IMG/VR virus record: IMGVR_UViG_3300020043_004908
Span: 1-38,081 of that record
DNA from: a virus
Taxonomy: Duplodnaviria > Caudoviricetes
Strand: one strand, 5' to 3'
Length of the DNA: 38,081 nt
This document shows, piece after piece, positions 3,293-32,908 of the stretch. Within the stretch, counting starts at the first letter, position 1. Each line of letters begins with the position of its first letter. The translations under genes and the position numbers were made by a program. The notes under the pieces were generated by a model. It was not told where the DNA came from. It made no database searches and saw only the letters and a list, made by a program, of their open reading frames with translations.

Positions 3293-3352
3293 AAACCCTA
3301 CTTTCCCAGTGCTGTGACGTAATTAAATACGTCAGGTGATTTCTAATTAGTG

Positions 3353-3493
3353 TTATGCGTCACGCTTAAATCGCTCCACGTACTTTAGGACGCGCTCTTT
3401 CTGCTCTGGTGTGAGCCACAAGCGCAGCTCTACCAGACCGTTTTTCTTTCTGTTTGCGCGTGTGTTGCGCATCAACTCGCTCTTTGCTTTCAT
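3353..3493 (-). CDS. 46-aa basic protein, probable ribbon-helix-helix DNA binder (not in ORF track)
   Basis: MKAKSELMRNTRANRKKNGLVELRLWLTPEQKERVLKYVERFKRDA; ATGA-coupled to the upstream ORF; paralogous to the C-terminus of 4608..4877. Confidence 0.7.
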   Translation of the reverse strand: MKAKSELMRNTRANRKKNGLVELRLWLTPEQKERVLKYVERFKRDA

Positions 3494-3762
3494 GCCTTTC
3501 CGCTCTCAAAAATCTGCCAGTCTGTTTTATTTGTTATTGCCTTTTGCAGTTTATAATGCGCTGGCCTCCTTATAATATCCGCGTAAAGCTGTTGCTGATT
3601 TTTGCTGTATCGCAAACACTCCTGTGGGTTGCCACTTTCCCTTGCGCTTAACCTCCACCAAACAGAAATCCAATAATAACTGCGCGGCCACCCTTCCTTG
3701 TGTCCCATATCAGCCGCGTGACACTGCGCTTGCCTTAAAGTCAATGGTTGCCTAGCTCTCAT
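3490..3762 (-). CDS. Hypothetical cassette protein
   Basis: ORF with ATGA coupling at both ends. Confidence 0.6.
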   Translation of the reverse strand: MRARQPLTLRQAQCHAADMGHKEGWPRSYYWISVWWRLSARESGNPQECLRYSKNQQQLYADIIRRPAHYKLQKAITNKTDWQIFESGKA

Positions 3763-4040
3763 TCCGCACACTCTAAAGCGTATTTCTGCACGTTTTTGCG
3801 AGTACCAAACATCTTAAAGAGGCCATCCGCGCTACCTTTTGCGGCAATCTCATAAGGAACGCGAGAAACAACTTCGTAGCAGTCATCGCCTATCTTGTCG
3901 CCGTTACTCATCACAACACCTTGAACAATGGCTTTACCGCAGCAATCGCACTTTTCCCAAAACTCACGCGGTGGCGATACTTTTTTGCCGCTTGCAAAGT
4001 CAACAGTTTTTAGGCTAAAAGTTTTTGTTTTGGTAATCAT
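3759..4040 (-). CDS. Hypothetical cassette protein with CxxC...C (possible Zn-binding)
   Basis: Start reassigned to ATG 4040 with GGAGA RBS; CDCCGK...IGDDC. Confidence 0.65.
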   Translation of the reverse strand: MITKTKTFSLKTVDFASGKKVSPPREFWEKCDCCGKAIVQGVVMSNGDKIGDDCYEVVSRVPYEIAAKGSADGLFKMFGTRKNVQKYALECAE

Positions 4041-4067
4041 GTCTGAATCTCCGCAGTCGATGTGTTC

Positions 4068-4095
4068 ATTATACACAGTAACGCGTTACCTGCAA
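4068..4095 (-). promoter_or_regulatory. sigma70-like promoter with a palindromic operator
   Basis: TTGCAG (4095-4090), 16 bp, TATAAT (4073-4068); perfect palindrome GTAACGCGTTAC (4078-4089) in the spacer. Confidence 0.7.
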
Positions 4096-4137
4096 GCACT
4101 ATTTCCAATTATTTTTACTGTTAATTCATACAGTGCC

Positions 4138-4185
4138 GCATAACAACTCGCTCAACCGGACAAGCCGGTTAGCTTGGGGTTATAT
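4138..4185 (+). other. attC-like recombination site A (48 bp)
   Basis: R'' GCATAAC, AACTC, L'' GCT(C)AACC, GGACAAGCC, L' GGTTAGC, TTGGG, R' GTTATAT. Confidence 0.85.
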
Positions 4186-4542
4186 GCCACTGAAACATCG
4201 GCTCATAGCTTCATCAATACAGAATCCTCTGTTTGGTAATATCCCGTTTATTGTCATCTCGTAGACTATCAACGGCACTTCGGCTTGCGTGTACTCATTA
4301 GGCAGCATTGTTATGGTTAAACGTCTTTCTCCTTTCTCGTTCATTGCGCCAATAACTGCTTCGTAATCCGCAAGATCAACAGTTTTGCATTCTGCAGAGT
4401 ACATGGGCTTTTCCACTATTCTCGGGTATTCATGCAAAGGATCAATCGAAAAAATATCGAGCCTAGTTTTAACGGGCTTCCTGTAGCAGTAGTCATAGTA
4501 TTTTCTTGCTGCTGCACCGTGTACCTTGCCTGTAACTATCAT
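4180..4542 (-). CDS. Hypothetical protein, cassette 2
   Basis: 120-aa ORF with AGGAGA RBS; stop TAA lies in R' of site A. Confidence 0.7.
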   Translation of the reverse strand: MIVTGKVHGAAARKYYDYCYRKPVKTRLDIFSIDPLHEYPRIVEKPMYSAECKTVDLADYEAVIGAMNEKGERRLTITMLPNEYTQAEVPLIVYEMTINGILPNRGFCIDEAMSRCFSGI

Positions 4543-4607
4543 TCGTTTCTCCTATGTGTCATATAAAAACTCATTCAACCGGACGCTTCGCGCCGGTTAG
4601 CTTGGGG
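4180..4607. mobile_element. attC gene cassette 2
   Basis: Starts G|TTATATG and ends CATATAAA (one mismatch to CATATAAC) plus attC B. Confidence 0.75.
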
Positions 4608-4613
4608 TTATGC
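4561..4613 (+). other. attC-like site B (R'' AAC mutated to AAA)
   Basis: ATATAAA-AACTC-ATTCAACC-GGACGCTTCGCGCC-GGTTAGC-TTGGG-GTTATGC. Confidence 0.8.
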
Positions 4614-4877
4614 GTCACGTTTAACCCGCGCCACGTACTTTAAGACTCGCTCTTTCTGTTCTAGTGTGAGCCAAAACTCGCACCTTAATAAGCCGTCTCG
4701 CTTTCTATCTCTACGCATTTTTTCCATCATTAGTTTTTTAGATCGTTTATTATCTCTCTCGCAAACTGCACACATAACGCCAGAGTAGTGCATTAAGTGC
4801 CTTTGGCATAATTTAAAACCTTTGCATTTATCGCACAATCCTACTGGGTTAAAATGCTCGCATACTTCACGATTCAT
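4608..4877 (-). CDS. Cys/His-rich N-terminus plus RHH-like C-terminus, cassette 3
   Basis: CEH...CDKC...CQRH...CAVC followed by GLLRCEFWLTLEQKERVLKYV; stop in R' of site B. Confidence 0.65.
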   Translation of the reverse strand: MNREVCEHFNPVGLCDKCKGFKLCQRHLMHYSGVMCAVCERDNKRSKKLMMEKMRRDRKRDGLLRCEFWLTLEQKERVLKYVARVKRDA

Positions 4878-5065
4878 ACAATTCTAGTTCCATTAGCGGT
4901 TACTGTTGTCCATATTTGTCTGTTGCGCTGTGGGCAAAAATACACTTCAAATCTACATCCGTTACCAGCTTCACCAGCAAATATAATGTTTTGGTTTGTC
5001 GAGTTTGCTGCGTTTTTTGCTTGATTGTATGTCATGTTGGATGGTATTCCAGTGTAGATAGTCAT
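4874..5065 (-). CDS. Hypothetical protein, cassette 3
   Basis: Start reassigned to ATG 5065 with AAGGAGA RBS; leader shared with the ORF starting at 4040. Confidence 0.6.
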   Translation of the reverse strand: MTIYTGIPSNMTYNQAKNAANSTNQNIIFAGEAGNGCRFEVYFCPQRNRQIWTTVTANGTRIV

Positions 5066-5133
5066 GTCTGCATCTCCTTGGTTGATGTGTTCATTATCCA
5101 TACCCTGCACATAATCTATATACGTAATATCCA

Positions 5134-5472
5134 CTAAAGCCCCTCTGCCCATGATCTGTCTATTGGTACTACGGTGTCAGGTCGCCATGACTTGTCTGTG
5201 TGAAGCGCTATAAAGCTATCCTGGCGCTTTGTGCTGTCGTCTGCGTAAACATCCTGCCATCCTTGTATTATCGCTCTCTCCAATAGCAGGTTTGGACAGT
5301 GGCCTTCCTGCTCCAATCTGGACAGCTTGCGAATCAGCATATCAATACCGCGCGCACTGATTGGCTTTTTAATGTCCAGCTTCCTTGCTTCGACAAATGA
5401 TTCAAGTAGTGATCGGTCTATGCTGTCCTGTAGTAGCAGGGGCAAACATGTCGGTTTGTGTGTCATATTCAT
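5134..5472 (-). CDS. Small protein resembling the C-terminal domain of phage replication initiators
   Basis: F..ARK.IKKP.S......LI.KL......N.LLE.AI..GWQ.VY pattern. Confidence 0.5.
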   Translation of the reverse strand: MNMTHKPTCLPLLLQDSIDRSLLESFVEARKLDIKKPISARGIDMLIRKLSRLEQEGHCPNLLLERAIIQGWQDVYADDSTKRQDSFIALHTDKSWRPDTVVPIDRSWAEGL

Positions 5473-5605
5473 CAGCCTTGGTTACTTTTACGTTATGTCC
5501 ATATTTGATCTTGATAAACAGCTTTATGCACTCTGACCCGTAAATTTCCCCGCCATGATAATAGACTTGCTTTAGCCTCTTACCGCAGCGGGAACATTTC
5601 GTCAC
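5402..5605 (-). CDS. Small Zn-finger-like hypothetical protein
   Basis: CSRCGK.L......YGSEC; GTGA-coupled to the MTase. Confidence 0.5.
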   Translation of the reverse strand: MTKCSRCGKRLKQVYYHGGEIYGSECIKLFIKIKYGHNVKVTKADEYDTQTDMFAPATTGQHRPITT

Positions 5606-6627
5606 GCGAATAAGTCCATAGGTTCGAACACTTCATCAGTGAAACGACTTTCAGCCAGAGAAAGATTTATTTTTGCCTGCTTGAAATAGCTGTCTTTTAA
5701 TTCGATTCCGATTGCCTTGCGTCCTAACGAAACAGGGCTATAAACCTCGCTACCAACTCCCATAAAAGGCGTTAACACTGTTTCTCCGATATTAGAATAT
5801 AGATCAACCAGTCTATCGATAACATCAAGCTGCAACGGGTGGACGTGCTTCTCGTCATCCTCCTCTCTCGCATCACGGAAAGGTAAAACATTATCAATAC
5901 GAATGTCATCCCAAACGCTTGACGCGTAACGTTGCCAAATATAATGACTCAGCTTGTTTGATTTTGGATCTTCGTGGTCATAAAACATTTTATTCAGAGT
6001 GTCCCACAACTCCTCAGCCGTTAGCTTTGATTCATTGGCGTTATTCCAAGCCTGTAGGATGTTTGGCAGTATTGGGGTATCTCCTGCATATCGCTTAAAC
6101 CCGCATGAGTGGGTTACTGGCACTGCATTGTCGCCTTTTTTTGTCAGTATAAGCACATAGTCAGGCATGGCCGTGAAGCATTGTGTTGAGTCCTCTACTA
6201 TCAATTTGTGCATCAGGCTCTTAACCATTGTCCTCATTCTTACCTTCAATGGCTCTTTCCATATAGTGATTCTGTTTCTGTACTGGAATCCGTACTTCTC
6301 GTGTATGCGGATTATCTCGTGCGGGAAGTCCCATAGCCTGCAAGCATTGTCAAAAACATCAGTACAATGAACCGCTGTTATCCTGCCAGGCTTTGTAACC
6401 CTAGCCATTTGAGCAATCAGATAATCATACTGGTCAATAAATTGCTCTTTATTCTCGCAGTTTGAAAAATCACGCTCACTTGAGCTGTAATTGTACAGTC
6501 CTGCAAATGGTGGGCTATATATTGATAAGTCTACCGATTCATCCGGTATCGACTGCAATACATCCATGCAATCTCCGTTATAAATTGCGTAGTTTTTCGT
6601 TACTTCCTGATCCTTAATATCGCTCAT
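5602..6627 (-). CDS. DNA methyltransferase, N4-C/N6-A beta class
   Basis: GDC...DLSIYSPPF catalytic motif precedes VLTPFMGVGS..GRKAIGIEL SAM-binding motif. Confidence 0.9.
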   Translation of the reverse strand: MSDIKDQEVTKNYAIYNGDCMDVLQSIPDESVDLSIYSPPFAGLYNYSSSERDFSNCENKEQFIDQYDYLIAQMARVTKPGRITAVHCTDVFDNACRLWDFPHEIIRIHEKYGFQYRNRITIWKEPLKVRMRTMVKSLMHKLIVEDSTQCFTAMPDYVLILTKKGDNAVPVTHSCGFKRYAGDTPILPNILQAWNNANESKLTAEELWDTLNKMFYDHEDPKSNKLSHYIWQRYASSVWDDIRIDNVLPFRDAREEDDEKHVHPLQLDVIDRLVDLYSNIGETVLTPFMGVGSEVYSPVSLGRKAIGIELKDSYFKQAKINLSLAESRFTDEVFEPMDLFA

Positions 6628-8009
6628 TTCAAAAACTCCGGTAATGTGATTGTCTGATTAAACTCTTTTTTTGTTTCTGTGAAACTTCTATTCGCATTCT
6701 TTACTAGGTTTTCATATAGATCAATCGCTTTCTGTGTCTTTTGTTGTAGTGCTTCCATCACTCGCTCTTGCCCTTCGCTTATAACAAGGTCTACTATGAC
6801 CTCTTGCTTTTGACCAAACCTCCAGAATCTTCGGATAGCCTGATAATACTGCTCATAACTCCAAGTCGGGAAATATACAGTATGGTTGCAGTGTTGCCAG
6901 TTTAGACCCATTGAAGTCATGGATGCCTTTGTTATCAGTCTGTCTATATCTCCATTTGCAAAAGCAATCAGTATTTCCTCTTTCTTGTCTATGCTCATTG
7001 ATCCTATTATTTCCTTTGCATTACGATCCATTTTTGAAAGGTTGGCGCTCTCGTCATTAGTATTACACCAGTAGACCGATGTTTTTCCATTTGCCAACTC
7101 TACCGCTCTTTCGCATCTTTCGATAGTGGTCTGTTTCTGTTCAACCCTTACCTCTGACATTGTCTTAGCTGCCATTGCAAACAAAGACTCCTGACCATTT
7201 ATGCACCATGTATTGCTGTTGTGAACTACATGATTGTTTGTTATCAGTGGAGGCAACTTATAAAGTTCATCGCTAAAGTTTCCTATATCCGATGGCTTTT
7301 TTACCATTATTGCCCACTGGTTTACCCATGCAAAAAAGTCCCACTCTGCGTGTGGCTTCAGGTAAAACTTTTCGCCTATATTCCTGTTTGTGGAGTCTAC
7401 GCTGTTCTGGTTGCTTTTGAAAAACTTGCCAAGCATATCCATATATCCCATATACCCAAGTGCTTCCGAGCTATTTCCTAGCTCGATAAAGTCATTAGGG
7501 CTTGGTGTGGCAGTGCTTAGGAATCTATACCTGACGCGCTTTATAAAAGCGATGATGGCATCCTTGGTAGCACCTGCAAAGTTCTTAAGTATGCTTGACT
7601 CATCCAGCATTACGCACTCGAAATCATCGGGATTGAAATGGTGCAGCCTTTCGTAATTAGCGATAACTATCTTTTTTGTAAACCTTCCATCCTTTGATTG
7701 CTCTATGTCGTCAATACCTATCCTTTGTGCCTCATTAAGAAACTGGAACGCTACAGCCAAAGGGGTAAGTATCAATACCCGCTTATTTGTTGACATAACC
7801 ACGTTATAGGCTACTGATAGCTGTATTAGTGTCTTTCCTAGTCCAGTGTCGGCAAATACACCATAGCGGCCTTTCTGTACTGTCTTTTCAATAATTGCTC
7901 GCTGGAAATCAAACGCACTATCTGGTATCCAATTAGCTTTAAACCCATTATCTGATAGAGAATGTTTCTTATTCCGGATAAAATCCTGGTAGCTCACACA
8001 TTCCGCCAT
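6624..8009 (-). CDS. SF2 (SNF2-like) helicase
   Basis: DTGLGKT (Walker A), LDESS, TATPSPND, GLNWQ, QAIRRFWRFGQ. Confidence 0.88.
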   Translation of the reverse strand: MAECVSYQDFIRNKKHSLSDNGFKANWIPDSAFDFQRAIIEKTVQKGRYGVFADTGLGKTLIQLSVAYNVVMSTNKRVLILTPLAVAFQFLNEAQRIGIDDIEQSKDGRFTKKIVIANYERLHHFNPDDFECVMLDESSILKNFAGATKDAIIAFIKRVRYRFLSTATPSPNDFIELGNSSEALGYMGYMDMLGKFFKSNQNSVDSTNRNIGEKFYLKPHAEWDFFAWVNQWAIMVKKPSDIGNFSDELYKLPPLITNNHVVHNSNTWCINGQESLFAMAAKTMSEVRVEQKQTTIERCERAVELANGKTSVYWCNTNDESANLSKMDRNAKEIIGSMSIDKKEEILIAFANGDIDRLITKASMTSMGLNWQHCNHTVYFPTWSYEQYYQAIRRFWRFGQKQEVIVDLVISEGQERVMEALQQKTQKAIDLYENLVKNANRSFTETKKEFNQTITLPEFLK

Positions 8010-8257
8010 GTCTTGTAACTCCTGATCGCTTCGATGGTTCGGATATGAACGCCATATTCCGATGACTGTGATTTTGCAGTAATACCATGCTCGGCTTGTA
8101 TCCGTATTTTCCGCACTATTGACTGGTTTAATTTTGCGTGTGGTAATTGATTGCCGCTCTTAGCGTACTTTCGAGGGTCACACAGATAATCCTCTCTGGA
8201 TATATTGTGCTTTGATCCTTTGCGGTTGTAGGTGTCGTTTGGGTCTATGTATGCCAT
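7994..8257 (-). CDS. Small HTH protein resembling the C-terminal DNA-binding domain of phage HNH nucleases
   Basis: G...PHAKL....VRKIR.......YGV...TI..IR..KTW. Confidence 0.55.
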   Translation of the reverse strand: MAYIDPNDTYNRKGSKHNISREDYLCDPRKYAKSGNQLPHAKLNQSIVRKIRIQAEHGITAKSQSSEYGVHIRTIEAIRSYKTWRNV

Positions 8258-8534
8258 TTGATTTCCTTTTTAACATAGTTATCACTGATGACTGTAGTTC
8301 AGGGATACCCTAACCACCATACGTAATTACCTAATCATTGCAGACTGTCACTATCAGCAAAGGCTCGTCATCCTGACACTGCCCCAAAAGTCGCCCAAGT
8401 ATCCCGTCACATACGCTGTTTTATGTCATCCAGACACGCCCCGTCATCAAGGGCGCAATCTACAAACTCGCTTTTATCCTGAATGGCACGATGCGACCAC
8501 ACTATTCACAGGGTTTGTCAAAATTCAGGCAACA

Positions 8535-8630
8535 AAAAAGGGCTGTATGGTGTAACCTGATGGCGGTGACTAGGTTTGTTCCTAGCCGCAGGTCACACTA
8601 TAAAGCCCTCTCTCATCCACCGCCAAGTAG
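8535..8630 (-). ncRNA. Structured leader/antisense RNA, C4- or P4 CI-like
   Basis: 21-bp outer stem (8539-8559 with 8589-8609), inner hairpin CTAGG/CCTAG, U-tract, and an 8-nt complement TGGCGGTG (8561-8568) / CACCGCCA (8618-8625). Confidence 0.55.
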
Positions 8631-8639
8631 ACAAGGCGA

Positions 8640-8682
8640 ATCATATCGCACCATTGCCACCATTGCAAGCCTTTGCTATAAT
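8640..8682. promoter_or_regulatory. Overlapping divergent sigma70 promoters
   Basis: Minus: TTGCAA (8668-8663), 17 bp, TATGAT (8645-8640). Plus: TTGCCA (8654-8659), 17 bp, TGc-TATAAT (8677-8682). Confidence 0.7.
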
Positions 8683-8763
8683 AATCGTGCATTTCTATAC
8701 CTTGCTAACGATTTAAGTCGAGTGAGTGATGATGCACCCGCGAAGCCACAAGCCTAGCGGGTA

Positions 8764-8898
8764 TTAATTCAACAACAGCACGATGATTTCCTTGGCCACT
8801 GCGATAATATCAGCAGCAAAGTAGGTCGTAGTGTTCCAAGTGCCGAAGCAGAGCACACAGAATCCGGCGTTTAGTGCGATTTCAGCCCAGGCTTTCAT
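8764..8898 (-). CDS. 44-aa hydrophobic protein
   Basis: GGAGG RBS, TAATG coupling; MKAWAEIALNAGFCVLCF... Confidence 0.55.
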   Translation of the reverse strand: MKAWAEIALNAGFCVLCFGTWNTTTYFAADIIAVAKEIIVLLLN

Positions 8899-9050
8899 TA
8901 GACACCTCCAATAACAACAGCGAGAGAGTAGGCAAACGGCACTAGACACGCTAGGCAGGCCACCAAGAGCCAAAAGTGCTGCCATGCTGTAGGCCGGTCG
9001 TCATCTAGCAGGACGGGATTGTGGCGGGAAAGGTGCTTGTAGTCGATCAT
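8898..9050 (-). CDS. 50-aa membrane protein (not in ORF track)
   Basis: GAGGA RBS; MIDYKHLSRHNPVLLDDDRPTAWQHFWLLVACLACLVPFAYSLAVVIGGV. Confidence 0.6.
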   Translation of the reverse strand: MIDYKHLSRHNPVLLDDDRPTAWQHFWLLVACLACLVPFAYSLAVVIGGV

Positions 9051-9105
9051 GGCAATTCCTCTCAGGGTTATATGCTCAAGGCATGACGCTATGTTATACA
9101 GTAAC

Positions 9106-9309
9106 TCAGGCAGTGGAATTGTGGATAATACCTACGCCAGTATCCCAAGTTTTCATTGTTTCAGCTATTTCTCTTGGCCTAACTATTACTTTATTGCTTT
9201 GATGCGTAGTAAATGCCAAGCCTGTACCCTCGGCATCCTGGGTAGTTCCTTGGTATTTCAGCGGCCCGTAATGGTTGTGGGTGTATATTTTCCCGATTGT
9301 AAAAAACAT
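9106..9309 (-). CDS. Hypothetical protein
   Basis: ORF with AGGTGGA RBS. Confidence 0.5.
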   Translation of the reverse strand: MFFTIGKIYTHNHYGPLKYQGTTQDAEGTGLAFTTHQSNKVIVRPREIAETMKTWDTGVGIIHNSTA

Positions 9310-9417
9310 TTATTTGTCCACCTGTGTGATTAGTACCTAGATTATCCATTGCTATCATAATCTGCAATATGTTATGATTGGGCATTATACGGCATCACAT
9401 AAACACGGGGAAACATT

Positions 9418-9705
9418 ATGGCAGGCGACAAGAAAGACATTAGACAAGCTGCATCAAGCGCCACAACTGCTATAAAACGGGGTGCTGACGGTGGCAAGGT
9501 TGCAGCAACGAGGGTAAAGGCAAAGACAAAGACAGCAGCAGAGCTGGCAGCCGAAGCAGTAGCAAAGGCAGCCGAAGCCAAGTCAGATGCCGTAACGATG
9601 CTGAAAGAAAAGGACGCAGCAGAAGCAGCACGCAAGGCAGGAGCAGAAGCAAACAAGAAGAAAAAGAAATCAGCAGTTGATATTTTCATGGACAGCACAA
9701 CATGA
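9418..9705 (+). CDS. Ala/Lys-rich hypothetical protein
   Basis: First plus-strand ORF; GGGG RBS; low complexity. Confidence 0.6.
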   Translation: MAGDKKDIRQAASSATTAIKRGADGGKVAATRVKAKTKTAAELAAEAVAKAAEAKSDAVTMLKEKDAAEAARKAGAEANKKKKKSAVDIFMDSTT

Positions 9706-9833
9706 GCAGAGCAAAGGGAAGCAAGAACAAGCCAAAGCCAGAAGCAAAGCCGGTAGAGTTGCCACCAATATCCACGCGACCAGTACCTAGACGCGATGGT
9801 GTCTACACCAAGCCAGCACCAAGGCCAGAATGA
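9702..9833 (+). CDS. 43-aa protein with an AT-hook-like N-terminus (not in ORF track)
   Basis: MSRAKGSKNKPKPE...; ATGA-coupled at both ends. Confidence 0.55.
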   Translation: MSRAKGSKNKPKPEAKPVELPPISTRPVPRRDGVYTKPAPRPE

Positions 9834-10366: not shown

Positions 10367-10377
10367 TGTATGACAAT
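10344..10377 (+). promoter_or_regulatory. Late promoter motif, copy 1
   Basis: ATACAGGAAACCGGATG, 11 bp, GACAAT. Confidence 0.75.
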
Positions 10378-10402
10378 CGCGCAACATTGAGAGGATTGTA
10401 TT

Positions 10403-13271: not shown

Positions 13272-13375
13272 TCCCTGCAACTACCGCCACTTCGGTGATA
13301 ACGGTGGATTTATAGAGTCCAGCATGGTGCTGACAAACTCGAACAAATCAAATCAATCAACCGGAGGGACATATT

Positions 13376-25131: not shown

Positions 25132-26743
25132 TCTAAAAGTATTCTTCCAGATATGGGCTGACATCCAGAATTGGGATGTGCCTGACTTTCACTTCGCTGT
25201 CTGTGATTTCCTGCAAGATGATTGGGATGATGGCCTGTTGATGATGCCTCGCGGTCATGCCAAGTCCTCCATAATTGCTGTCTACAATGCATGGAAGTAT
25301 TACTACACAGACGGCAAGTACCGCATCCTGCACCAAGGCGACCAAGATTCTACCGCCTACAAGATGAGCCGTGACACTCTTGCTATTATCTCAAAGCATC
25401 CACTATGCCGCAGGGCAATGACAAAGACAAAGGGCGAGGTGCAGGAATGGTGGGTATCCGGTTCGATTGATGAGCGTAACCCGTCAATGCAGGCAAGGGG
25501 AATAACGTCTAACGTCACATCATCACGGGCCGATGAAGTACAGAATGACGATGTTGAAGTGCCAAGGAATATACAGACGGCTGACGCAAGGGAGAAGCTC
25601 CGGTATAGATTGGGGGAACAAACCCACATCCTAGTGCCTGGAGGCCGCACCTTGTACGTTGGCACTCCTCACACGCATAAGTCACTCTATGAAGATGTGA
25701 AGACCAACTCGCAGTGTTTGATACTGAAAGCCTTCCAGCACGAGCACAGGATAGAAAACAAAGACCATGCTACGTTGTCATTCAAACCTGAGTACGTCTA
25801 TTCAGGGATTGGTAAATATGCTCGACTGCTAGAGGCGGGGATTGATTACACGCTGACAAACATGGGGAATCGGTGGGAAGTCATGCTTGCTGCCACTGCA
25901 ATCCTTGCTGACTTCTATTCCGGTGCATTATGGCCTGAGCGGTTCACGCCAAAGGAAATGGAGAAACGCAGGCAGAAATGCAAGACCATGAATGAATGGG
26001 ATTCACAGTATCAGCTCCATGCCAAGCCTGTTATAGAGGTCAGAATTGATCCGGACAGGATGATACGTTACCAGTCTGAGCCTGATTTACGAGTTGCCAA
26101 TGGTTCGCCAGTGATGGAGATTGACGGAGTGCAGATGGTAGGCTGCTCGTTTACTGTTGACCCTTCGAGCGGGAAGCTGAACAGTGATGTATCGGCAGGG
26201 GCTTTGATGTTTCAGGACTGCAACGGGAAGCGTTATTGGCACAGGGCATTAACCTTTACAGGCGATGTTGCCATCTTTGCCGATGATGGCAAGACCATTA
26301 CAGGTGGTCAGGTGTTCCAGATATGCGATGTGGTCAAAGAGTTCAGCATACCAAGGGTAACAATCAAGACGGCGGGTATAGGTGGGTTCATGCCTGCTGT
26401 AATGAAGGCGGCATTAAAGCAAAGGCATCTAGTCTGTGGGGTTACAGAGGAAAAGGAAACAACCAATAAGAACAAGCGCATCATAGAGGCATTTGAACCA
26501 TTGCTATTGTCTGGCATGTTGGCTTGTCATGAGTCAGTGATTGAGATTGTCGAGGATCAGATGCGGGAATTTAACCCTGTGACTACAAGCAACGAGGATG
26601 ATTACATTGACTCTGCGGCGAGTGCTATTACCCATACCCCTGAGCGGATACAGTCTGTCGGTAAATACAGGAAACCGGATGCCTTGACGGGCAATAATTG
26701 GCAACCTAATAGTGGCACGTTTGAAGTTGGAGTTGATTGGTAA
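25112..26743 (+). CDS. terL: Terminase large subunit
   Basis: PRGHAKS (Walker A), NDDVE (Walker B), VGTPH, VDPS, DDYID nuclease residues. Confidence 0.92.
   Translation: MIERKVDLKVFFQIWADIQNWDVPDFHFAVCDFLQDDWDDGLLMMPRGHAKSSIIAVYNAWKYYYTDGKYRILHQGDQDSTAYKMSRDTLAIISKHPLCRRAMTKTKGEVQEWWVSGSIDERNPSMQARGITSNVTSSRADEVQNDDVEVPRNIQTADAREKLRYRLGEQTHILVPGGRTLYVGTPHTHKSLYEDVKTNSQCLILKAFQHEHRIENKDHATLSFKPEYVYSGIGKYARLLEAGIDYTLTNMGNRWEVMLAATAILADFYSGALWPERFTPKEMEKRRQKCKTMNEWDSQYQLHAKPVIEVRIDPDRMIRYQSEPDLRVANGSPVMEIDGVQMVGCSFTVDPSSGKLNSDVSAGALMFQDCNGKRYWHRALTFTGDVAIFADDGKTITGGQVFQICDVVKEFSIPRVTIKTAGIGGFMPAVMKAALKQRHLVCGVTEEKETTNKNKRIIEAFEPLLLSGMLACHESVIEIVEDQMREFNPVTTSNEDDYIDSAASAITHTPERIQSVGKYRKPDALTGNNWQPNSGTFEVGVDW
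26665..26698 (+). promoter_or_regulatory. Late promoter motif, copy 3
   Basis: ATACAGGAAACCGGATG, 11 bp, AATAAT. Confidence 0.75.
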
Positions 26744-28383
26744 TGGCAATACCTGCCCAAACGCAATATAACACCTATAATCCCGATGGGGTTGTAACCA
26801 CTTTTGCCTATACCTTCTGCGCGTTTGATGATGCTGATATTAAAGTTTATGCTGATGATGTCCTTGTTTCTGATTCTACTTACTCGGTAAGCGGTATTGG
26901 CACTAGGTCAGGCGGTAATGTGGTATTTACTACAGCTCCGGTTGCCGGAATTGCTGAGTTACTGATTAAACTTGTGCCATCGTTTGCCCGTACTGTTGAT
27001 TATCAGCAAAACGGGGAGCTATTATCTGACACGCTAGATGATGACGTTGACCGCCTTTATTCCATATTGCAATACAATCAGTCTGTGACGGGCAGGTCTT
27101 TAACGTTTGATGACGTTACGGCAACTGCGATGACGTTGATTGGCAATGCTGCTGCGAGAATGGGCAAGCTGCTTGGGTTTGATGCTACGACAGGCGATCC
27201 TGGTTTATTTGTTCCTGCTGATTTCACGGCTACCACTCCGACCGCCTATATCAATACCCTGTTAGACGATGCTGATAGTGCCACTGCTAGGGCAACGCTT
27301 GAGATTGTGAAGAATGCGCGAGAGCAGGAAGGCATCAGATATACGACTGCGGGTACTGCACCTGATTTCACCATTACGACTGCATCGCCTGCTGTCAGTG
27401 CTTATGTTGAAGGGCAGCGGTTCACTATTGAATTGAATGCTGACGGCACGATTGGAAGTAACACACTAAACGTCAATGCTTTGGGCGCTAAGAGTTTGAA
27501 GCAATACGATGACGCAGGCAACAAGCGATCAGGTGTTTGCAAGTCAGCACAGATTGCAGTCGTTGAATATGACGGAACAGACTTTGTTATTCTGAATCCT
27601 TTGCCGGTTTATCCATTGAGCATGGTAAGGCAGACGGTACAAGGTGGGCCAATTACTGCGGCAGGTTATCCTGATTTCCTTCCTGCCACTGATGCCGATT
27701 TAAGTCTAGTAACTCAAAACATCAGCGCGTCCGCTCCGTTTGTTGTATGTGCTTCGCAGGGCTTTGGTCTTGGCTCTGACCGTATAGGTGTCTCGACTGC
27801 AAACCTGACGTTCACTTGTCAGAATGGGACTAATTATCTGTATGTCGATGTGTCTAGTGCTGGAGTTATTACAACGGGTACGACTTTAACCGCTCCGGTT
27901 TATAGCCCTTCACTTGCTACGGGCACAAATACATTCAACTATACAACGATGACCATGTATTCAAGCGGCACTACAAAGGCTTGGCGCGTGTTTGTCGGTG
28001 AGGCTATAGCGGCTGCGGGTGCGGTTACTTCGACTATTGCCTATGCTTACAACGGTGTCTATGAGTCTGCAAACTATGGCTTGGCTGTTAGTAGTTCGTA
28101 CACTGTAAACCATAACGTAGGCTGCCCATCTATTAAAACAACGACTATGGTATGTACTACAACTGATGGCACTTATGCTGTTGGCTATGAGTTTCTAGCT
28201 CCGTCAATGGATCCGCAGGGGTATACATTCGGCCATACAGGTGTATCTATAAGTGTGAACACATATATATCGTTAGTCGCAGCCAACGCAATTTACGTTG
28301 TTGATTACTCACTTCCAAGCACTTACAAGTTGCTCGACTATACAAAATGGAAACTGAAGACAACCGTTAAGAGGTCATTCTAA
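26743..28383 (+). CDS. Tail fibre/spike protein
   Basis: T7-like fibre N-terminus (DG..T.F...F, DIKVY, GG.V.F..AP, R..DY..G.L...L..D.DRL); Thr-rich C-terminus. Confidence 0.85.
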   Translation: MAIPAQTQYNTYNPDGVVTTFAYTFCAFDDADIKVYADDVLVSDSTYSVSGIGTRSGGNVVFTTAPVAGIAELLIKLVPSFARTVDYQQNGELLSDTLDDDVDRLYSILQYNQSVTGRSLTFDDVTATAMTLIGNAAARMGKLLGFDATTGDPGLFVPADFTATTPTAYINTLLDDADSATARATLEIVKNAREQEGIRYTTAGTAPDFTITTASPAVSAYVEGQRFTIELNADGTIGSNTLNVNALGAKSLKQYDDAGNKRSGVCKSAQIAVVEYDGTDFVILNPLPVYPLSMVRQTVQGGPITAAGYPDFLPATDADLSLVTQNISASAPFVVCASQGFGLGSDRIGVSTANLTFTCQNGTNYLYVDVSSAGVITTGTTLTAPVYSPSLATGTNTFNYTTMTMYSSGTTKAWRVFVGEAIAAAGAVTSTIAYAYNGVYESANYGLAVSSSYTVNHNVGCPSIKTTTMVCTTTDGTYAVGYEFLAPSMDPQGYTFGHTGVSISVNTYISLVAANAIYVVDYSLPSTYKLLDYTKWKLKTTVKRSF

Positions 28384-28874
28384 TGGGTTACTACATAGAC
28401 GGTTCAAGCGCTTATTACGAGGGCGACAAGCGTTCTCCGTCTGATACCGCAGTAGATCAAAGACCATATCCTACAATGGATTGGACTGCGGGGGCTTGGG
28501 TCTATGATTTAGCTGCTACAAGAATAATGGCGAAACAAGTTTACACAGTAGCAATGACTGCCGATTTATCCAATGCTATGGCAACAGGGGCAAACCCTGT
28601 AGACATGATGACAGTCATCGGCTATGCGTTTATGCGTGCTGATCTTGTTGCCTATGCTGATAATGCTGCAAACAACTGCCCGTTCATTGACGGATACAGA
28701 GCAATCACAGGAGACACTAAAGCAAACTGTGTTACTGACATACTCAACGATGCAGATTTAGCGGCTGGATTATTGGGCAAAGTACTTGCAAGACGTGCGA
28801 CAGATTACGACCTAATAGATGCTGCGGCCACCGGCCCAGCAATAACCGCAATAGTTTACGTGAGGCCATTCTGA
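28383..28874 (+). CDS. Probable tail fibre assembly protein
   Basis: RP.P...W...AW motif; follows the fibre gene. Confidence 0.6.
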   Translation: MGYYIDGSSAYYEGDKRSPSDTAVDQRPYPTMDWTAGAWVYDLAATRIMAKQVYTVAMTADLSNAMATGANPVDMMTVIGYAFMRADLVAYADNAANNCPFIDGYRAITGDTKANCVTDILNDADLAAGLLGKVLARRATDYDLIDAAATGPAITAIVYVRPF

Positions 28875-29218
28875 TGAGAAATTTAACCGCAACTGTTTAC
28901 CGTGATGGTGCAGGTAGTCAAACTACGAGCGATTGGGTACGGGTAGGTGCTGAGGTATCGTGCAGGGGGTTGGTCGCAATCGTAACCCCTGCAACTGTTA
29001 CCTCTACCACTCTTACGGTTCAGGTCAGCCTGAATGGTACGGATGCCCTTAGTCACTATGACTACACTGGTGTTTCCTATGTGATTCCGATTCTAGCTAG
29101 CAGATGGATTTCTCTTGATCCTGCATTGTTTGCTGGATTTCCTTATGTTCGGATTGTCACAGGGTCAAACGAAGCGGCAGAGAGAACCTTCACACTTATG
29201 ACAACTGAGGTGGCGTGA
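28874..29218 (+). CDS. Small beta-rich structural protein
   Basis: LTVQVS.NG....YVRIV pattern. Confidence 0.6.
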   Translation: MRNLTATVYRDGAGSQTTSDWVRVGAEVSCRGLVAIVTPATVTSTTLTVQVSLNGTDALSHYDYTGVSYVIPILASRWISLDPALFAGFPYVRIVTGSNEAAERTFTLMTTEVA

Positions 29219-29688
29219 TGCTAAGTTTTGGCAGAAACCCAAAGGCTACAGTAGTCGTATCGCAAGGCACAGGCAGTCAGACTGTTAGCGGTACGGGTGC
29301 AGCTATTGATATGGCTCCGGGGTTGATAACTGTTCCTGGTGGGTTGATGAGTGCTACTGGGTCTATCAGGATTACGGCGACTTGGAAGTTTACTGGGACT
29401 ACTGCGGCTAAGACTTGTTTATTCAAGTTTGGTGGCACTACTTATTATTTGCAGGCTTATGCAAACACTGTGTTAAGTTCTGTTGCACAGACTGTATTGC
29501 ATAACAAAACCACAGCCAGTCAGGTTGCGGTTGGTGCTGGTCTTGCTACTGCTTTGGGTGCTACGACAGGAACAACGACCACATCTGCTGTAGATACTGC
29601 GAGTGATGTAGTTATCCAGATTACGTTTAGTGGCAATGCTGCTGATACTGCGTCACTTGAGCATTGGATAGTGGAGTATTTGCCATGA
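29215..29688 (+). CDS. Thr/Gly-rich virion-associated protein
   Basis: Coupled ORF with fibre-like composition. Confidence 0.55.
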   Translation: MMLSFGRNPKATVVVSQGTGSQTVSGTGAAIDMAPGLITVPGGLMSATGSIRITATWKFTGTTAAKTCLFKFGGTTYYLQAYANTVLSSVAQTVLHNKTTASQVAVGAGLATALGATTGTTTTSAVDTASDVVIQITFSGNAADTASLEHWIVEYLP

Positions 29689-29825
29689 TTAAGATCAAGA
29701 GCAAAGTTGTTGACGATGTGACTGTGCCTGTATCGCCTATCCCCGCTGGTTATGTTTATCTTACCTTCGATGGCAAGGATTTTGTTGTGTACTTTGAAGG
29801 TGATAAGTTACCTGTTCAGGAATAA
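29685..29825 (+). CDS. 46-aa hypothetical protein (not in ORF track)
   Basis: GGAG RBS, ATGA overlap; MIKIKSKVVDD...EGDKLPVQE. Confidence 0.55.
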   Translation: MIKIKSKVVDDVTVPVSPIPAGYVYLTFDGKDFVVYFEGDKLPVQE

Positions 29826-29837
29826 GGATATTTTGAT

Positions 29838-30194
29838 ATGAGCTGTGCAGAATGCCCAAACGCAGGATTGAGCGATAGAATCCAGAGAGTCGAGATGGAT
29901 AGTGCTAGGCTTATGGCGGCGCTTGAGGGTATCAAGGCTAACACTGATGAATTGGTATCATTCTCGCGCACTCAGGTAAGGATGGAAGAGCGGCAACTCA
30001 ATCAGGGTCAAGCGATTGAAAGGGCTTTTGCAGAGATTAAAGAATTTCATGATGATGGTGGTACACGACTAGCAGCGATTGAGGCTGAAATACCGACACT
30101 CGTTTTAGCTCGCAAGATGGTATTTGCATCGATGATATGGATGATTATGATGACTGCCACAATGGCATGGCAGATTATATTCAGGCAGTCATGA
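29838..30194 (+). CDS. Coiled-coil protein with a C-terminal TM segment (lysis module)
   Basis: Hydrophobic tail MVFASMIWMIMMTATMAW. Confidence 0.6.
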   Translation: MSCAECPNAGLSDRIQRVEMDSARLMAALEGIKANTDELVSFSRTQVRMEERQLNQGQAIERAFAEIKEFHDDGGTRLAAIEAEIPTLVLARKMVFASMIWMIMMTATMAWQIIFRQS

Positions 30195-30592
30195 TGAGCT
30201 TCGTAGACCTTGCCATTCTTGACGACATAAATTACAAGGTGAATCATTCACTCCGATATAAACCTGATGTAGGTAGCCACTATCAAAAAGCTGATGAGTC
30301 ACGCCGTCTCGGAACTGGAGATTGCGAGGACTACGCGATTCTCAAAGCGCAGGAATTGAAAGAGGCAGGTGTCGATGTTTCGTTGCTCACGATTGCGGTA
30401 TGCACTACAAGGCGATCTGATACTAACCACGCTGTGTTACTTGTTCCTAGTCGCAGGAGAGTTGGCATATTCAAGCGCAGGTGGGAAGATACGACTGTAG
30501 TGCTTGATAACTACAACGACACAATATATCGGTTTGAGAACACGGGCTATACGATTGTGCAAAAATATCCTGCATCGAGGTGGGTTGTATGA
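30191..30592 (+). CDS. Transglutaminase-like cysteine peptidase (BTLCP/LapG-like)
   Basis: GDCEDYAI.K, HAVL, VLDN catalytic-triad motifs. Confidence 0.82.
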   Translation: MMSFVDLAILDDINYKVNHSLRYKPDVGSHYQKADESRRLGTGDCEDYAILKAQELKEAGVDVSLLTIAVCTTRRSDTNHAVLLVPSRRRVGIFKRRWEDTTVVLDNYNDTIYRFENTGYTIVQKYPASRWVV

Positions 30593-31095
30593 GTTCAACA
30601 TGGGAAAAGGTAGGTCGCGCTGTTGCTGATGCTGCTCCGATACTTGGCGGCTTGTTGGGTGGTCCAGCGGGTGGTGCGGCAGGTGCTTTGATCGCATCGA
30701 CACTCGGATCATCATCCAGCCCGGAAGCTGTTCTGGAGAAAATGAAGTGTGATCCTGAATGGATTATGAAGGTACAGCAACTTGAATCCGATGAGCGAAA
30801 GCATTTGCTGGATCTGCAGGTGCAGACTTTGCAGGCAGAGCTGGCTGACGTTCAGAGCGCAAGACAGTCACATGCAGGGCATTGGATGCCTTCAGCTTTA
30901 ACTTTGTTCCTGACGGCTATGGTGTGCGCTATGACATATGCCGTGATAACGATGGTGATTCCTGCTGATAATAAAGATATGGCTGTCTATATTTTCGGCG
31001 TTGTTACTGGTGCATGGTCTAGCTCTATCGCGTATTGGATCGGCACATCACGCACATCATTTGCTAAAGATGCGATTATCGCGGGGTCAAAATGA
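30589..31095 (+). CDS. Holin-like membrane protein
   Basis: AP.LG.LLGGP.G; D..SAR; two C-terminal TM helices; YW.G.S. Confidence 0.7.
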   Translation: MSSTWEKVGRAVADAAPILGGLLGGPAGGAAGALIASTLGSSSSPEAVLEKMKCDPEWIMKVQQLESDERKHLLDLQVQTLQAELADVQSARQSHAGHWMPSALTLFLTAMVCAMTYAVITMVIPADNKDMAVYIFGVVTGAWSSSIAYWIGTSRTSFAKDAIIAGSK

Positions 31096-31544
31096 AACTG
31101 TCGCAAGCAGGCATTGACCTAATCAAGCACTTCGAGGGATGCTCGCACAAGGCTTATCTTTGTCCGGCAGGCGTACCCACAATCGGATATGGAGCAACAG
31201 GGCCGGATATTAAGCTAGGCATGACATGGACTCAGGCTCAGTGCGATGAAAGATTTCTACATGATGTATCATCATTCGAGCGTGACGTTAATTCACTCGT
31301 CAAAGTTCCGCTGACACAAGGACAATTCGATGCTTTGGTATCTTTCGCTTATAACTGTGGCTCTGATATTGACAGTGATGACATTGCCGAGGGATTAGGT
31401 GACTCGACACTGTTGAAGCTGTTGAACCAAGGGCATTATGACTTGGCCGCTAAACAATTCGGGCGGTGGATTAGCAAGGGTACAAGTGCAGAGCCTGGAT
31501 TAAGGCGCAGACGGAAGGCAGAGGAATTGCTGTTCATCGGATAA
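31092..31544 (+). CDS. Endolysin, GH24 lysozyme
   Basis: LIKHFEG....Y.CPAGV.TIGYG; QFDALVSF.YN.G; GL.RRR.AE. Confidence 0.93.
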   Translation: MKLSQAGIDLIKHFEGCSHKAYLCPAGVPTIGYGATGPDIKLGMTWTQAQCDERFLHDVSSFERDVNSLVKVPLTQGQFDALVSFAYNCGSDIDSDDIAEGLGDSTLLKLLNQGHYDLAAKQFGRWISKGTSAEPGLRRRRKAEELLFIG

Positions 31545-31574
31545 AAAAGGGGATGCTGACCAAGGCAATCCCCC
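31543..31574 (-). terminator. Terminator at the convergence of early and late operons
   Basis: A6 tract then GGGGAT-GC...GCAATCCCC hairpin. Confidence 0.65.
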
Positions 31575-31654
31575 GTGGTGCTTTAGCCGTAGATATTTGG
31601 CATGATGTTATCCTCTATCAGCATCGGGCGGTGCTGTATCCGCTAAATGTTGTT

Positions 31655-31876
31655 TCAGTCGCCCCAAAAATTACGCGCTCTGCCTGCTTCTGCAACAGCT
31701 ATTTCATGCCTTCTCTGCTCGTCTAGCCGCATCCTATCAATCCTTTTCTGCATCAAAACCTTGCCTTCCTCGCCCATTGAGTCGCACATTTCCTTAAATT
31801 GTTTCGATTCTTCAGCCGCTGCATATACGTTGTTAATGATCCCAACTGTCATTGCTGTTAATCCGAACATAATCAC
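31655..31876 (-). CDS. Hypothetical protein
   Basis: Coupled ORF with a hydrophobic N-terminus. Confidence 0.55.
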   Translation of the reverse strand: MIMFGLTAMTVGIINNVYAAAEESKQFKEMCDSMGEEGKVLMQKRIDRMRLDEQRRHEIAVAEAGRARNFWGD

Positions 31877-32052
31877 TCCAACCTCAAATGCTGCGTGTTT
31901 AAGTCAACCCCTTGCAGGTACGAGTAGTTATGATTATCGCGCTTCCGCTTAGGCTTTGCCGCTGCTTTCAACTGTTGAGAGCACTTCTCGTGGTTGAATT
32001 GCCTGCCTCGTTTACCGCCGCACACGGGGCAGTTGTAGCTGTCGAGCCTCAT
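31873..32052 (-). CDS. 59-aa protein with CxxC...H..C (not in ORF track)
   Basis: MRLDSYNCPVCGGKRGRQFNHEKCSQ...; GGGGA RBS. Confidence 0.55.
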   Translation of the reverse strand: MRLDSYNCPVCGGKRGRQFNHEKCSQQLKAAAKPKRKRDNHNYSYLQGVDLNTQHLRLE

Positions 32053-32061
32053 AAATATCCC

Positions 32062-32217
32062 CTATGCTCCAACTTTACCGCGCACAAATACAAACGCAAA
32101 CCTGTACCAGATAAATTGCGCTTGATTGCCAGAAAAATAGTCAAAACGCTGAATCTTCCACCATGGCGCGGCGTTGCGCTTTCCATAAACATCAACCCTA
32201 TCAAGTTTCCATTTCAT
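32062..32217 (-). CDS. 51-aa hypothetical protein, cassette 4 (not in ORF track)
   Basis: MKWKLDRVDV...RGKVGA; GAGG RBS; stop in the degenerate R' CCTATGC. Confidence 0.6.
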   Translation of the reverse strand: MKWKLDRVDVYGKRNAAPWWKIQRFDYFSGNQAQFIWYRFAFVFVRGKVGA

Positions 32218-32239
32218 AAATTACCTCTCTTATGTTTAC

Positions 32240-32314
32240 GCATAACAAGTCATTCAACGCGGACTCGCTTAATTCACTTTGTTCATTCGCTCACCTGTTA
32301 GCTTGGGGTTATGT
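32240..32314 (+). other. attC-like site C (75 bp)
   Basis: GCATAAC-AAGTC-ATTCAACG...TGTTAGC-TTGGG-GTTATGT. Confidence 0.8.
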
Positions 32315-32593
32315 TTCACTGCGCTTTGCCTGCTTTGCTAGTGATATAAACCCGTTTATAAAATTAACAAACCGCTCTGCTTCGCACCTATCATCACCGA
32401 GCGGAATACCATCAAAACCGTTGCCTTTTAATATGCAACCCTCCCCGTAATCCTTAACACTGAAATGTTCTTGGTCTACATACTCAAGGGAGCGCCTATA
32501 CTTTGCGTCAGAAACAAAAACATACTGGCCTTGCTCAATTCCTCCAAGAGTTAGAGTTATTCTAGCCCCATCATAATTTACAACTTCAGTCAT
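32309..32593 (-). CDS. Hypothetical protein, cassette 5
   Basis: Start reassigned to ATG 32593 (GAGGA RBS); stop in R' of site C. Confidence 0.7.
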   Translation of the reverse strand: MTEVVNYDGARITLTLGGIEQGQYVFVSDAKYRRSLEYVDQEHFSVKDYGEGCILKGNGFDGIPLGDDRCEAERFVNFINGFISLAKQAKRSET

Positions 32594-32662
32594 ACTATTA
32601 TCCTCGAAGGTGAAACATAACAACGCGCTCAACTCGGACGCTTCGCGCCGGTTAGCTTTTGG
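32309..32662. mobile_element. attC gene cassette 5
   Basis: GTTATGTTTCAC (32308-32319) is the exact complement of GTGAAACATAAC (32610-32621). Confidence 0.85.
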
Positions 32663-32668
32663 TTATGT
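32615..32668 (+). other. attC-like site D (54 bp)
   Basis: ACATAAC-AACGC-GCTCAACT-CGGACGCTTCGCGCC-GGTTAGC-TTTTG-GTTATGT. Confidence 0.85.
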
Positions 32669-32872
32669 GAATTGCTTGCAGTAAACCCAAGCGACAATAT
32701 CTAGCAGCTCAATCATGCGCGTGTCTTTGTAATGACCGCAATCGCTGCGCTCAACATACACAATATCGTTACCAGCACATTTTATAACTTCAAGCACACC
32801 ATCATCGCCATACATAAGTCCGCCGTTTTCTTTCAAATAGTCGCGCAATAGCTTGGTAATATCTTTGCTCAT
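32663..32872 (-). CDS. Hypothetical protein, cassette 6
   Basis: AAGGTG RBS; stop in R' of site D. Confidence 0.7.
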   Translation of the reverse strand: MSKDITKLLRDYLKENGGLMYGDDGVLEVIKCAGNDIVYVERSDCGHYKDTRMIELLDIVAWVYCKQFT

Positions 32873-32908
32873 ATCGTCACCTTGTAGTTAAAATTCACAT
32901 AACAACGC
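32663..32908. mobile_element. attC gene cassette 6 (closing attC truncated after R'' and spacer)
   Basis: GTTATGTGAATT (32662-32673) is the exact complement of AATTCACATAAC (32892-32903), followed by AACGC. Confidence 0.78.

What the first reader, a model, noticed from the sequence alone, without database searches (positions are those of the whole stretch)
3352..32908. Phage-borne attC cassette arrays with systematically inverted ORFs and no integrase
Seen in the sequence: four complete sites (4138-4185, 4561-4613, 32240-32314, 32615-32668) with integron attC anatomy (R'' ..TAAC, 5-nt spacer, L'' with an extra C, central hairpin, L', 5-nt spacer, R' GTT..), plus two left half-sites (32897, 34193). 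Each R'' complements the R' at the start of its OWN cassette better than the adjacent R' (8 bp for cassette 1, 12/12 bp for cassettes 5 and 6). That is what linearised circular cassettes look like. Established: in canonical cassettes the ORF points toward R'' and often stops in it, and excision needs IntI. Here the bulged C defines + as the top strand, yet all cargo ORFs are on - and stop in the TTA of R' (3353, 4180, 4608, 32309, 32663). Inference: the phage uses mirror-image cassettes in line with its early transcription, mobilised in trans by a host IntI (or a relative), as a plug-in accessory-gene system.
Basis: partly seen in the sequence, partly recalled or inferred. Interest (0 to 1): 0.93.

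Follow-up and report, generated by a model that had tools for sequence, protein, structure and literature searches.

The report
Phage attI with backwards gene cassettes
This phage carries a bacterial-type gene-docking site and small gene cassettes that differ between related phages exactly at the cut point, with genes facing opposite to bacterial integrons; lacking its own recombinase, it likely borrows the host's to swap accessory genes.

Summary
Four attC sites (4138, 4561, 32240, 32615) lie in a ~38-kb tailed-phage contig with no tyrosine recombinase. The + strand is the attC top strand; cargo genes are on - and stop in the TTA of R'.

It occurs at 18 phage places, each followed by a different cassette start. 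Homologous sites sit in bacterial genomes, one beside a full intI, and there the first gene is in normal orientation.

Exchange is at the ordinary G|TT point, not a mirror point: the attC core follows the left cassette, and one public contig lacks cassette 5 exactly. Inversion is general: 67 of 108 viral cassette clusters (null 11) against 8 of 38 bacterial (null 3).

Best reading: an integrase-less phage integron platform, likely driven in trans by host IntI; this is untested. Phage attC clusters are published (Qi 2023); eight searches found no report of the inversion or of integrase-less phage attI. This scan noted the same layout in at least 118 other genomes.

The parts
3315..3358 (+). attI-type landing site: dyad TGACG-N10-CGTCA (3315-3334), L-like box with CTA at 3343-3345, six bases, R box with crossover G|TT at 3352/3353
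   Evidence: 18 phage places, each followed by a different cassette start; homologous bacterial sites, one beside a full intI; recombination itself untested
3353..4179 (-). Cassette 1: minus-strand ORFs 3759-4040 (93 aa), an uncertain middle ORF, and 3353-3493 (46 aa, stops in TTA of the attI R box)
   Evidence: both ends shared with cassettes in G003, G005 and G007; interior without cover in 4 of 4 runs
4118..4133 (.). LexA-box-like motif (consensus recalled) next to R'' of cassette 1
   Evidence: 2 matches in the window, 16 of 100 shuffles give 2 or more, so weak; same motif in the related G007 cassette
4138..4185 (+). attC A (top strand +, G at 4179)
   Evidence: identical core with other flanks in G002, G003 and G010
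4180..4607 (-). Cassette 2: 120-aa ORF 4180-4542, no known family
   Evidence: 16 homologue clusters at 34-99% identity; no Pfam or PHROG match
4561..4613 (+). attC B (R'' reads AAA instead of AAC; G at 4607)
4608..5095 (-). Cassette 3, attC lost here: ORFs 4874-5065 and 4608-4877 (C-terminus paralogous to the 46-aa ORF)
   Evidence: 92% identical copy in G003 ends in a complete attC whose R'' complements this start
32062..32308 (-). Cassette X with decayed left end: 51-aa ORF 32062-32217
   Evidence: 99% identical over 167 bp to a complete cassette in G003, which has a different attC core; intact left end in run X7
32240..32314 (+). attC C (long core, G at 32308; folds poorly in isolation)
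32309..32662 (-). Cassette 5: ORF 32309-32602 (97 aa), ends complementary 12/12
   Evidence: one X7 contig joins site C to the start of cassette 6; interior without cover in 4 of 4 runs; 2 homologue clusters
32615..32668 (+). attC D (G at 32662)
32663..32908 (-). Cassette 6: 69-aa ORF 32663-32872; its attC is cut down to R'' plus spacer (32897-32908)
   Evidence: three relatives carry other attC remnants at this slot
33834..34225 (-). Variable 392-bp segment with a 106-aa ORF and an R''/L''-like remnant at 34193, bounded by a 17-bp direct repeat; probably not IntI-mediated
   Evidence: skipped with 17 shared letters in contigs of 3 of 4 runs; absent in G008
357..986 (-). Erf single-strand annealing protein (relevant to the rival explanation)
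36678..37655 (-). RecT single-strand annealing protein (relevant to the rival explanation)

Best explanation
The phage carries an attI-type site and attC-bounded cassettes whose genes lie on the attC bottom strand, and these cassettes are likely inserted and excised at the ordinary G|TT point by an integron integrase that would come from the host, since no recombinase gene was found in the phage. Shown: site anatomy, gene orientation, different cassettes behind the same attI in related phages, breakpoints at G|TT, the attC core staying with the left cassette, homology of the site to bacterial attI. Inferred: the attI points against early transcription, so only a flipped gene is read by the phage's early operon and no Pc promoter is needed. 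The stop codon is the cassette's own TTA, so any insertion at G|TT keeps it. In some relatives the attC core appears to supply the start codon. A likely selective benefit is that normally oriented host cassettes, many of which encode anti-phage defence, would land antisense and stay silent unless they carry their own promoter. Homology-driven exchange and deletion also act on the arrays and leave the half-sites.
For: attI-type site at 18 phage places with 18 different cassette starts; in all 12 with a detectable next attC the first cassette's R'' complements that start at 9-12 of 12. A scan whose pattern lacked GTT gave 13 hits, 11 with GTT at +17 or +18. Bacterial homologues: L192 has a full divergent intI about 165 nt away; 11 places in 9 of 401 genomes, 2 with a partial divergent intI and 1 with a fragment; first ORF top-strand in 7 of 7 readable, against a bottom-strand stop at TTA in 12 of 18 phage sites. 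Core co-segregation: shared-left pairs 11 of 24 at 0.9 identity or more (mean 0.82; 11 independent groups), shared-right 0 of 8 (mean 0.35, background 0.44). X7 contig lacks cassette 5. Inversion 67 of 108 viral clusters v null mean 11, max 16. No PF00589 in 5 of 5 related records, 3 at least 90% complete. Qi 2023 showed IntI1 recombines bottom strands of PH101 attC sites, and annotated PH101 genes are inverted to them.
Against: No recombination assay, no circular cassette seen (only assembled contigs were available), and no host identified. The X7 junction has 22 letters on its short side in one contig, below the tool's 31-letter bridging rule. In 5 of 11 shared-left groups the core differs (0.70 or less), including the window's own cassette X, which plain IntI shuffling does not explain. 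Cluster 2 has no attI in this genome. Site B has a mutated R'' and site C folds poorly. Most bacterial homologues (8 of 11) have no intI match within 1.5 kb. Bacterial loci also hold inverted cassettes above their null (8 of 38 v max 7). The contig is rated 96% complete, so a missing gene cannot be excluded.
Confidence: 0.68

Rival explanations
1. The sites came from integrons, but cassettes are now exchanged mainly by the phage's own Erf and RecT annealing proteins, which use the similar attC and attI sequences as short homology linkers; IntI is not needed.
For: Erf, RecT, NinB and NinG are encoded. The same cassette occurs with different cores in 5 of 11 groups. Different attC remnants occupy the cluster-2 right end in four phages, and an X1 contig joins cassette X to such a remnant. 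The 392-bp indel uses a 17-bp repeat.
Against: Eighteen different cassettes start at the same G|TT of a site that has no attC-like core to pair with. Unrelated cores meet the same right-hand cassette at GTT (8 of 8 pairs). Own-end complementarity is kept (90 of 115 cassettes own > adjacent), which homology exchange would not select for.
Confidence: 0.14
2. The same IntI chemistry, but the enzyme is supplied by a co-infecting phage or prophage, or by a gene in the unassembled part of this genome, rather than by a host chromosomal integron.
For: 1 of 30 other attC-bearing viral records has a full IntI; 26 viral loci encode relatives of it; the window is rated 96% complete.
Against: No tyrosine recombinase in 5 of 5 related records, two rated 100% complete. 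The attI motif was in 0 of 26 intI-bearing viral loci but has bacterial homologues.
Confidence: 0.1
3. The arrays are inert remnants of integron DNA picked up once by transduction-type capture and now decaying.
For: Mutated R'' in site B, lost attC of cassette 3, decayed ends of cluster 2.
Against: Different cassettes behind a conserved attI in close relatives; exact loss of cassette 5 in X7; captured host arrays would mostly be top-strand (28 of 38 bacterial cassettes).
Confidence: 0.06
4. The hairpins are terminators or REP-like repeats that only resemble attC.
For: They are intergenic hairpins; no covariance model for attC could be run here.
Against: No terminator call on sites A or B. Full attC anatomy; close likeness to bacterial sites in intI-bearing loci; exchange at G|TT.
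Confidence: 0.02

Closest known systems
CALINs in virulent phages (Qi et al. 2023, PMC9892861; main text parts 1-4 of 7 and supplement part 1 of 2 read, figures not seen)
   Same: attC clusters in phage genomes without intI; five of six tested phage sites were IntI1 substrates, bottom strand preferred.
   Different: The text read does not mention inverted genes, an attI in virulent phages, or cassette variation between related phages (it reports an attI heading a CALIN in prophage M16-3, which has its own intI). My check: TJE1 is normally oriented; PH101 and ctTUS972 are inverted.
Sedentary chromosomal integrons of Gamma/Betaproteobacteria (intI, attI, Pc, attC cassettes; PMC4889954, PMC8946536, PMC8618304, passages read)
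   Same: attC anatomy, G|TT crossover, core belonging to the left cassette, attI of the same sequence family.
   Different: No intI, genes on the bottom strand, stop codon in R' instead of near R'', short arrays at two places, expression presumably from phage early promoters.
attG secondary-site insertion (Loot et al., bioRxiv 10.1101/2022.09.11.507474, passages read)
   Same: IntI can place cassettes outside integrons at GWT-type sites.
   Different: Here the target is a conserved ~45-bp site reused by many cassettes and homologous to bacterial attI, not a chance GWT.
Inverted toxin-antitoxin cassettes of Vibrio integrons (orientation recalled, not read here)
   Same: Gene opposite to attC polarity.
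   Different: A minority with own promoters in bacteria; here the majority, mostly single small ORFs with the stop codon fixed in R'.
Homology-linker module exchange in lambdoid and T4-type phages (boundary sequences, PeSL repeats; recalled)
   Same: Short conserved intergenic repeats flank variable early genes.
   Different: Those repeats lack attC anatomy and a fixed crossover base.

Membership tests
attC site | R''/L''/L'/R' boxes, spacers, extra base in L'' | tested here: met
   site B has AAA for AAC
attC site | Bottom strand folds into the R/L hairpin | tested here: inconclusive
   A and D fold as expected, B partly, C no better than shuffles; modelled circular junctions of cassettes 1, 2 and 5 fold 6-7 kcal/mol more stably than the array forms
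attC site | Hit by the IntegronFinder or HattCI model | not testable with these tools
   models not available; Rfam gave no hit
attC site | Recombined by IntI | not testable with these tools
   needs an assay; other phage attC sites passed it
Integron gene cassette | Gain or loss exactly at G|TT with the core on the left cassette | tested here: met
   exceptions with replaced cores in 5 of 11 groups
Integron gene cassette | ORF on the top strand, ending near R'' (usual, not obligatory) | tested here: not met
   all five listed ORFs are bottom-strand; top-strand ORFs in viral cassettes are at null level, 39 v 39
attI site | Simple site with R box GTTRRRY and degenerate L box heading an array, conservation ending at the crossover | tested here: met
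attI site | Homologous sites lie beside intI in bacteria | tested here: met
   L192 full intI; G218 and G185 partial; 8 of 11 class-search places have no intI match within 1.5 kb
attI site | Accepts attC in an IntI reaction | not testable with these tools
   needs an assay
Complete integron | intI gene beside attI | tested here: not met
   NinG lies there; no PF00589 in the record
Complete integron | Pc promoter driving top-strand cassettes | tested here: inconclusive
   no promoter-like match upstream of attI; hits in 3200-5300 at chance level
CALIN | At least two attC within 4 kb on one strand and no intI | tested here: met
   two clusters of two sites, by my scanner rather than IntegronFinder

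The most novel reading that the evidence does not exclude
Phages keep their own cassette pool, built from phage genes in reverse polarity and docked at attI sites taken from bacteria. They run it with the host's SOS-induced integrase, and the reversed polarity works as a filter that silences host anti-phage cassettes. attC cores that supply start codons and are swapped between cassettes would make phage arrays a place where cassettes are being made, which would open the question of cassette origin to experiment.
Probability: 0.35. Interest if true: 0.9.

Novelty: new variant of a known kind. Interest (0 to 1): 0.74.

Why it matters
Integrons are seen as bacterial devices, and recently as stores of anti-phage defence. 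If phages carry attI and use the host integrase on reverse-polarity cassettes, the same machine also diversifies phage early genes, and strand polarity separates the two gene pools. It gives a site-specific route to phage mosaicism and short natural substrates (a 45-bp attI, attC sites of 48-75 bp) that can go straight into standard assays. It also means that some inverted cassettes recovered from environmental DNA may be viral.

Tried and rejected
Mirror (top-strand, AA|C) crossover: rejected as the main route, because the core follows the left flank. The 3283-3360 stretch as a degenerate attC: it does not fold beyond shuffles (z -1.3) and has no L''/L' pair, although an R''-like CATAAC overlaps the start codon in some copies. 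Half-sites 32897 and 34193 do not fold. Top-strand ORFs ending in R'' in cassettes 1 and 2 (71 and 44 aa) are treated as shadows; the first is not kept at that length in related cassettes. No match in cultured phages for either cluster. Rfam: none. Cargo function: no usable Pfam, PHROG or atlas hit; a ribbon-helix-helix look for the 46/89-aa tail is recalled and untested. Host: not identified; nearest bacterial attC sites are 0.60-0.85 alike and span many phyla. The loose pattern is at chance level by itself (24 places v about 33 control matches); only the added CTA box marks 11 places as real. Promoter scan at chance level. Missing cover in laid contigs is not taken as proof of absence. The first scanner missed sites B and C and was replaced. 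L384 was dropped from the attI set as a chance match without the dyad (1 of 9 metagenome hits), as were L429 and L432 (2 of 13). Not in print as far as eight searches show; subscription papers, figures and the Dryad file of Qi 2023 were not seen and may show the orientation.
Full report
Setting. The window is a whole 38,081-bp virus record, rated 96% complete. It has T7-like portal, capsid and tail genes on + and a lambdoid-type early region on - (Erf, RecT, NinB, NinG, SSB, helicase, methyltransferase). No tyrosine recombinase was found in it or in four related records, while the same search rang in 14 of 14 control genomes. Partial relatives occur in public runs labelled mostly wastewater and sediment. 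The host is unknown.

The observation. My scanner found them at 12.4-14.6, with no hit at 11.5 or above in 30 shuffled windows. It is a home-made scorer, not IntegronFinder. A, B and D fold better than most shuffles; C does not. Each cassette's R'' matches its own start better than the neighbour's, and modelled circular junctions fold 6-7 kcal/mol more stably than the array forms. Five minus-strand ORFs stop in the TTA of R'. The 120-aa ORF has 16 homologue clusters down to 34% identity, so it is a real gene; none of the cargo has a known family.

The inversion is general. Pattern scans of viral contigs and bacterial genomes, with the other loci held at that point, gave 115 viral and 38 bacterial cassettes bounded by two sites. 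After clustering, 67 of 108 viral clusters have a bottom-strand ORF of 45 aa or more stopping exactly in R' (null mean 11, max 16 in 40 shuffles), against 8 of 38 bacterial (null mean 3, max 7); Fisher p = 2e-5. Top-strand ORFs near R'' are at null level in viral cassettes (39 v 39) and above it in bacterial ones (20 v 10). So bacteria hold some inverted cassettes too, possibly in prophages, which I did not separate.

Where the crossover lies. If the phage used the other strand, the core would travel with the right-hand gene. It does not. Among 222 viral sites, pairs sharing only the left flank have cores of mean identity 0.82 (11 of 24 at 0.9 or more; 11 independent groups, 6 with near-identical cores), and pairs sharing only the right flank 0.35 (0 of 8; background 0.44). 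In run X7 one contig carries cassette X and site C and then continues with the first 22 letters that follow the R' of site D, so cassette 5 is absent with the left core kept (tables 7 and 8). That side is shorter than the tool's 31-letter rule, so it is one modest piece of evidence. Against a pure IntI story, 5 of 11 groups show one cassette with different cores, including the window's cassette X.

The missed part: attI. BLAST to relatives showed identity ending at 3352-3356. The 3315-3358 stretch occurs at 18 phage places (window included), upstream of different genes and twice in G008, and all 18 are followed by different sequence after GTTA. Where a next attC was detected (12 of 18) its R'' complements that start at 9-12 of 12. 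A scan whose pattern did not contain GTT returned 13 hits, 11 with GTT at the expected offset. The same architecture (dyad, CTA, six bases, GTTA) lies about 165 nt from a full divergent intI in a betaproteobacterial MAG, L192. It also occurs at 11 places in 9 of 401 genomes of the class of G044, three of them spaced by eight bases; 2 have a partial divergent intI and 1 a fragment, and 8 have no intI match within 1.5 kb. In bacteria the first ORF is top-strand in 7 of 7 readable places and in L192; in phages a bottom-strand ORF stops at the TTA in 12 of 18. The window has one copy; cluster 2 lacks it, although relatives G008, L374 and L385 have one at the matching slot.

Decay. Cassette 3 has lost its attC, which is intact in G003. 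The right end of cluster 2 is an attC remnant that differs in four phages. The 34193 remnant lies in a 392-bp indel bounded by a 17-bp repeat. These point to homology-driven exchange and deletion, for which Erf and RecT are candidates.

Mechanism. Shown: anatomy, orientation, exchange at G|TT, attI homology, no recombinase found. Established (PMC8946536, PMC9892861, passages or text read): IntI recombines the attC bottom strand with attI and is SOS-induced. Inferred: host IntI acts in trans. With attI pointing against early transcription, a flipped gene joins the early operon, and its stop codon, formed by the cassette's own TTA, survives any insertion. In 34 of 222 viral sites (5 of 108 bacterial) an ATG inside the core opens a reading frame through R'', 19 with a ribosome-binding-like motif, so some cassettes would carry their start in attC; none of the window's four sites is among those 19. 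Host integrons store anti-phage genes (bioRxiv 10.1101/2024.07.02.601686, abstract and passages), so reversed polarity would likely keep captured host cassettes silent. The idea of separate pools was prompted by earlier scan notes and is untested. Confidence 0.68. A viral source of IntI is possible: 1 of 30 other attC-bearing records has one and 26 viral loci encode relatives, none with this attI motif.

Comparison. Qi et al. 2023 described 17 phage CALINs and showed IntI1 activity on five of six sites. They call the TJE1 and PH101 arrays typical. By my check TJE1 is normally oriented, whereas PH101 and ctTUS972 genes are opposite to their attC top strands; two more listed phages gave no match to my pattern. 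So inversion is not universal in phages, and sites in an inverted array are already shown to be IntI1 substrates. The element works like an integron, qualifies as a CALIN with an attI, and is not a complete integron. Eight literature searches found no description of systematic inversion or of integrase-less phage attI. This scan has noted the layout in at least 118 other genomes and attI-type phage sites elsewhere; these are unchecked notes, not support.

Verdict. A real, well-supported new variant of the integron cassette system. The enzyme source and the reason for the inversion remain inferred. Interest 0.74.

Noticed in passing
window:1-222 v 36333-36554; 991-1056 v 37661-37726; 2328-2508 v 37792-37972: The two ends carry paralogous modules (small gene, Erf or RecT, NinB). 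G008 also has two NinB copies, so the duplication may be real rather than an assembly overlap.
   Followed up: partly
window:4040-4133; L237, L234, L229, L288: A family of multi-gene inverted cassettes shares a leader with a perfect -10 hexamer, in two cases a LexA-like box, and ends in a small basic gene with a conserved C-terminal tail; possibly an SOS-linked regulatory or toxin-antitoxin-like module.
   Followed up: partly
L240, L229, L010, L374, L389, L392 (attC cores): Many small phage proteins begin with similar peptides (MSEANE..., MNEVNEASP...) that are translations of the attC bottom strand; site C of the window has such a start interrupted by a stop.
   Followed up: partly
G088 (L470, L472, L473), G385, G163, G197, G377, G350: Bacterial genomes hold attI-type sites with the same dyad but no intI match within 1.5 kb; G088 has three copies.
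   Followed up: no
G033 (L380, L283): A viral record with a full IntI encoded on the same strand as its apparently inverted cassette genes.
   Followed up: partly
L237, L238, L229: DNA-methyltransferase-like and other modification genes occur as or beside inverted cassettes in relatives (judged from their N-termini only).
   Followed up: no
window:35566-36102: Pentapeptide-repeat protein with a 15-bp tandem repeat.
   Followed up: no
window:33343-33837 and 1374-2171: NUMOD4/HNH-like gene and a PAPS-reductase-family gene in the early region; in G008 the latter directly follows an attC site.
   Followed up: no
window:31283-31302: A second TGACG-N10-CGTCA dyad inside the endolysin gene, with no GTT at the attI offset; probably chance.
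   Followed up: yes
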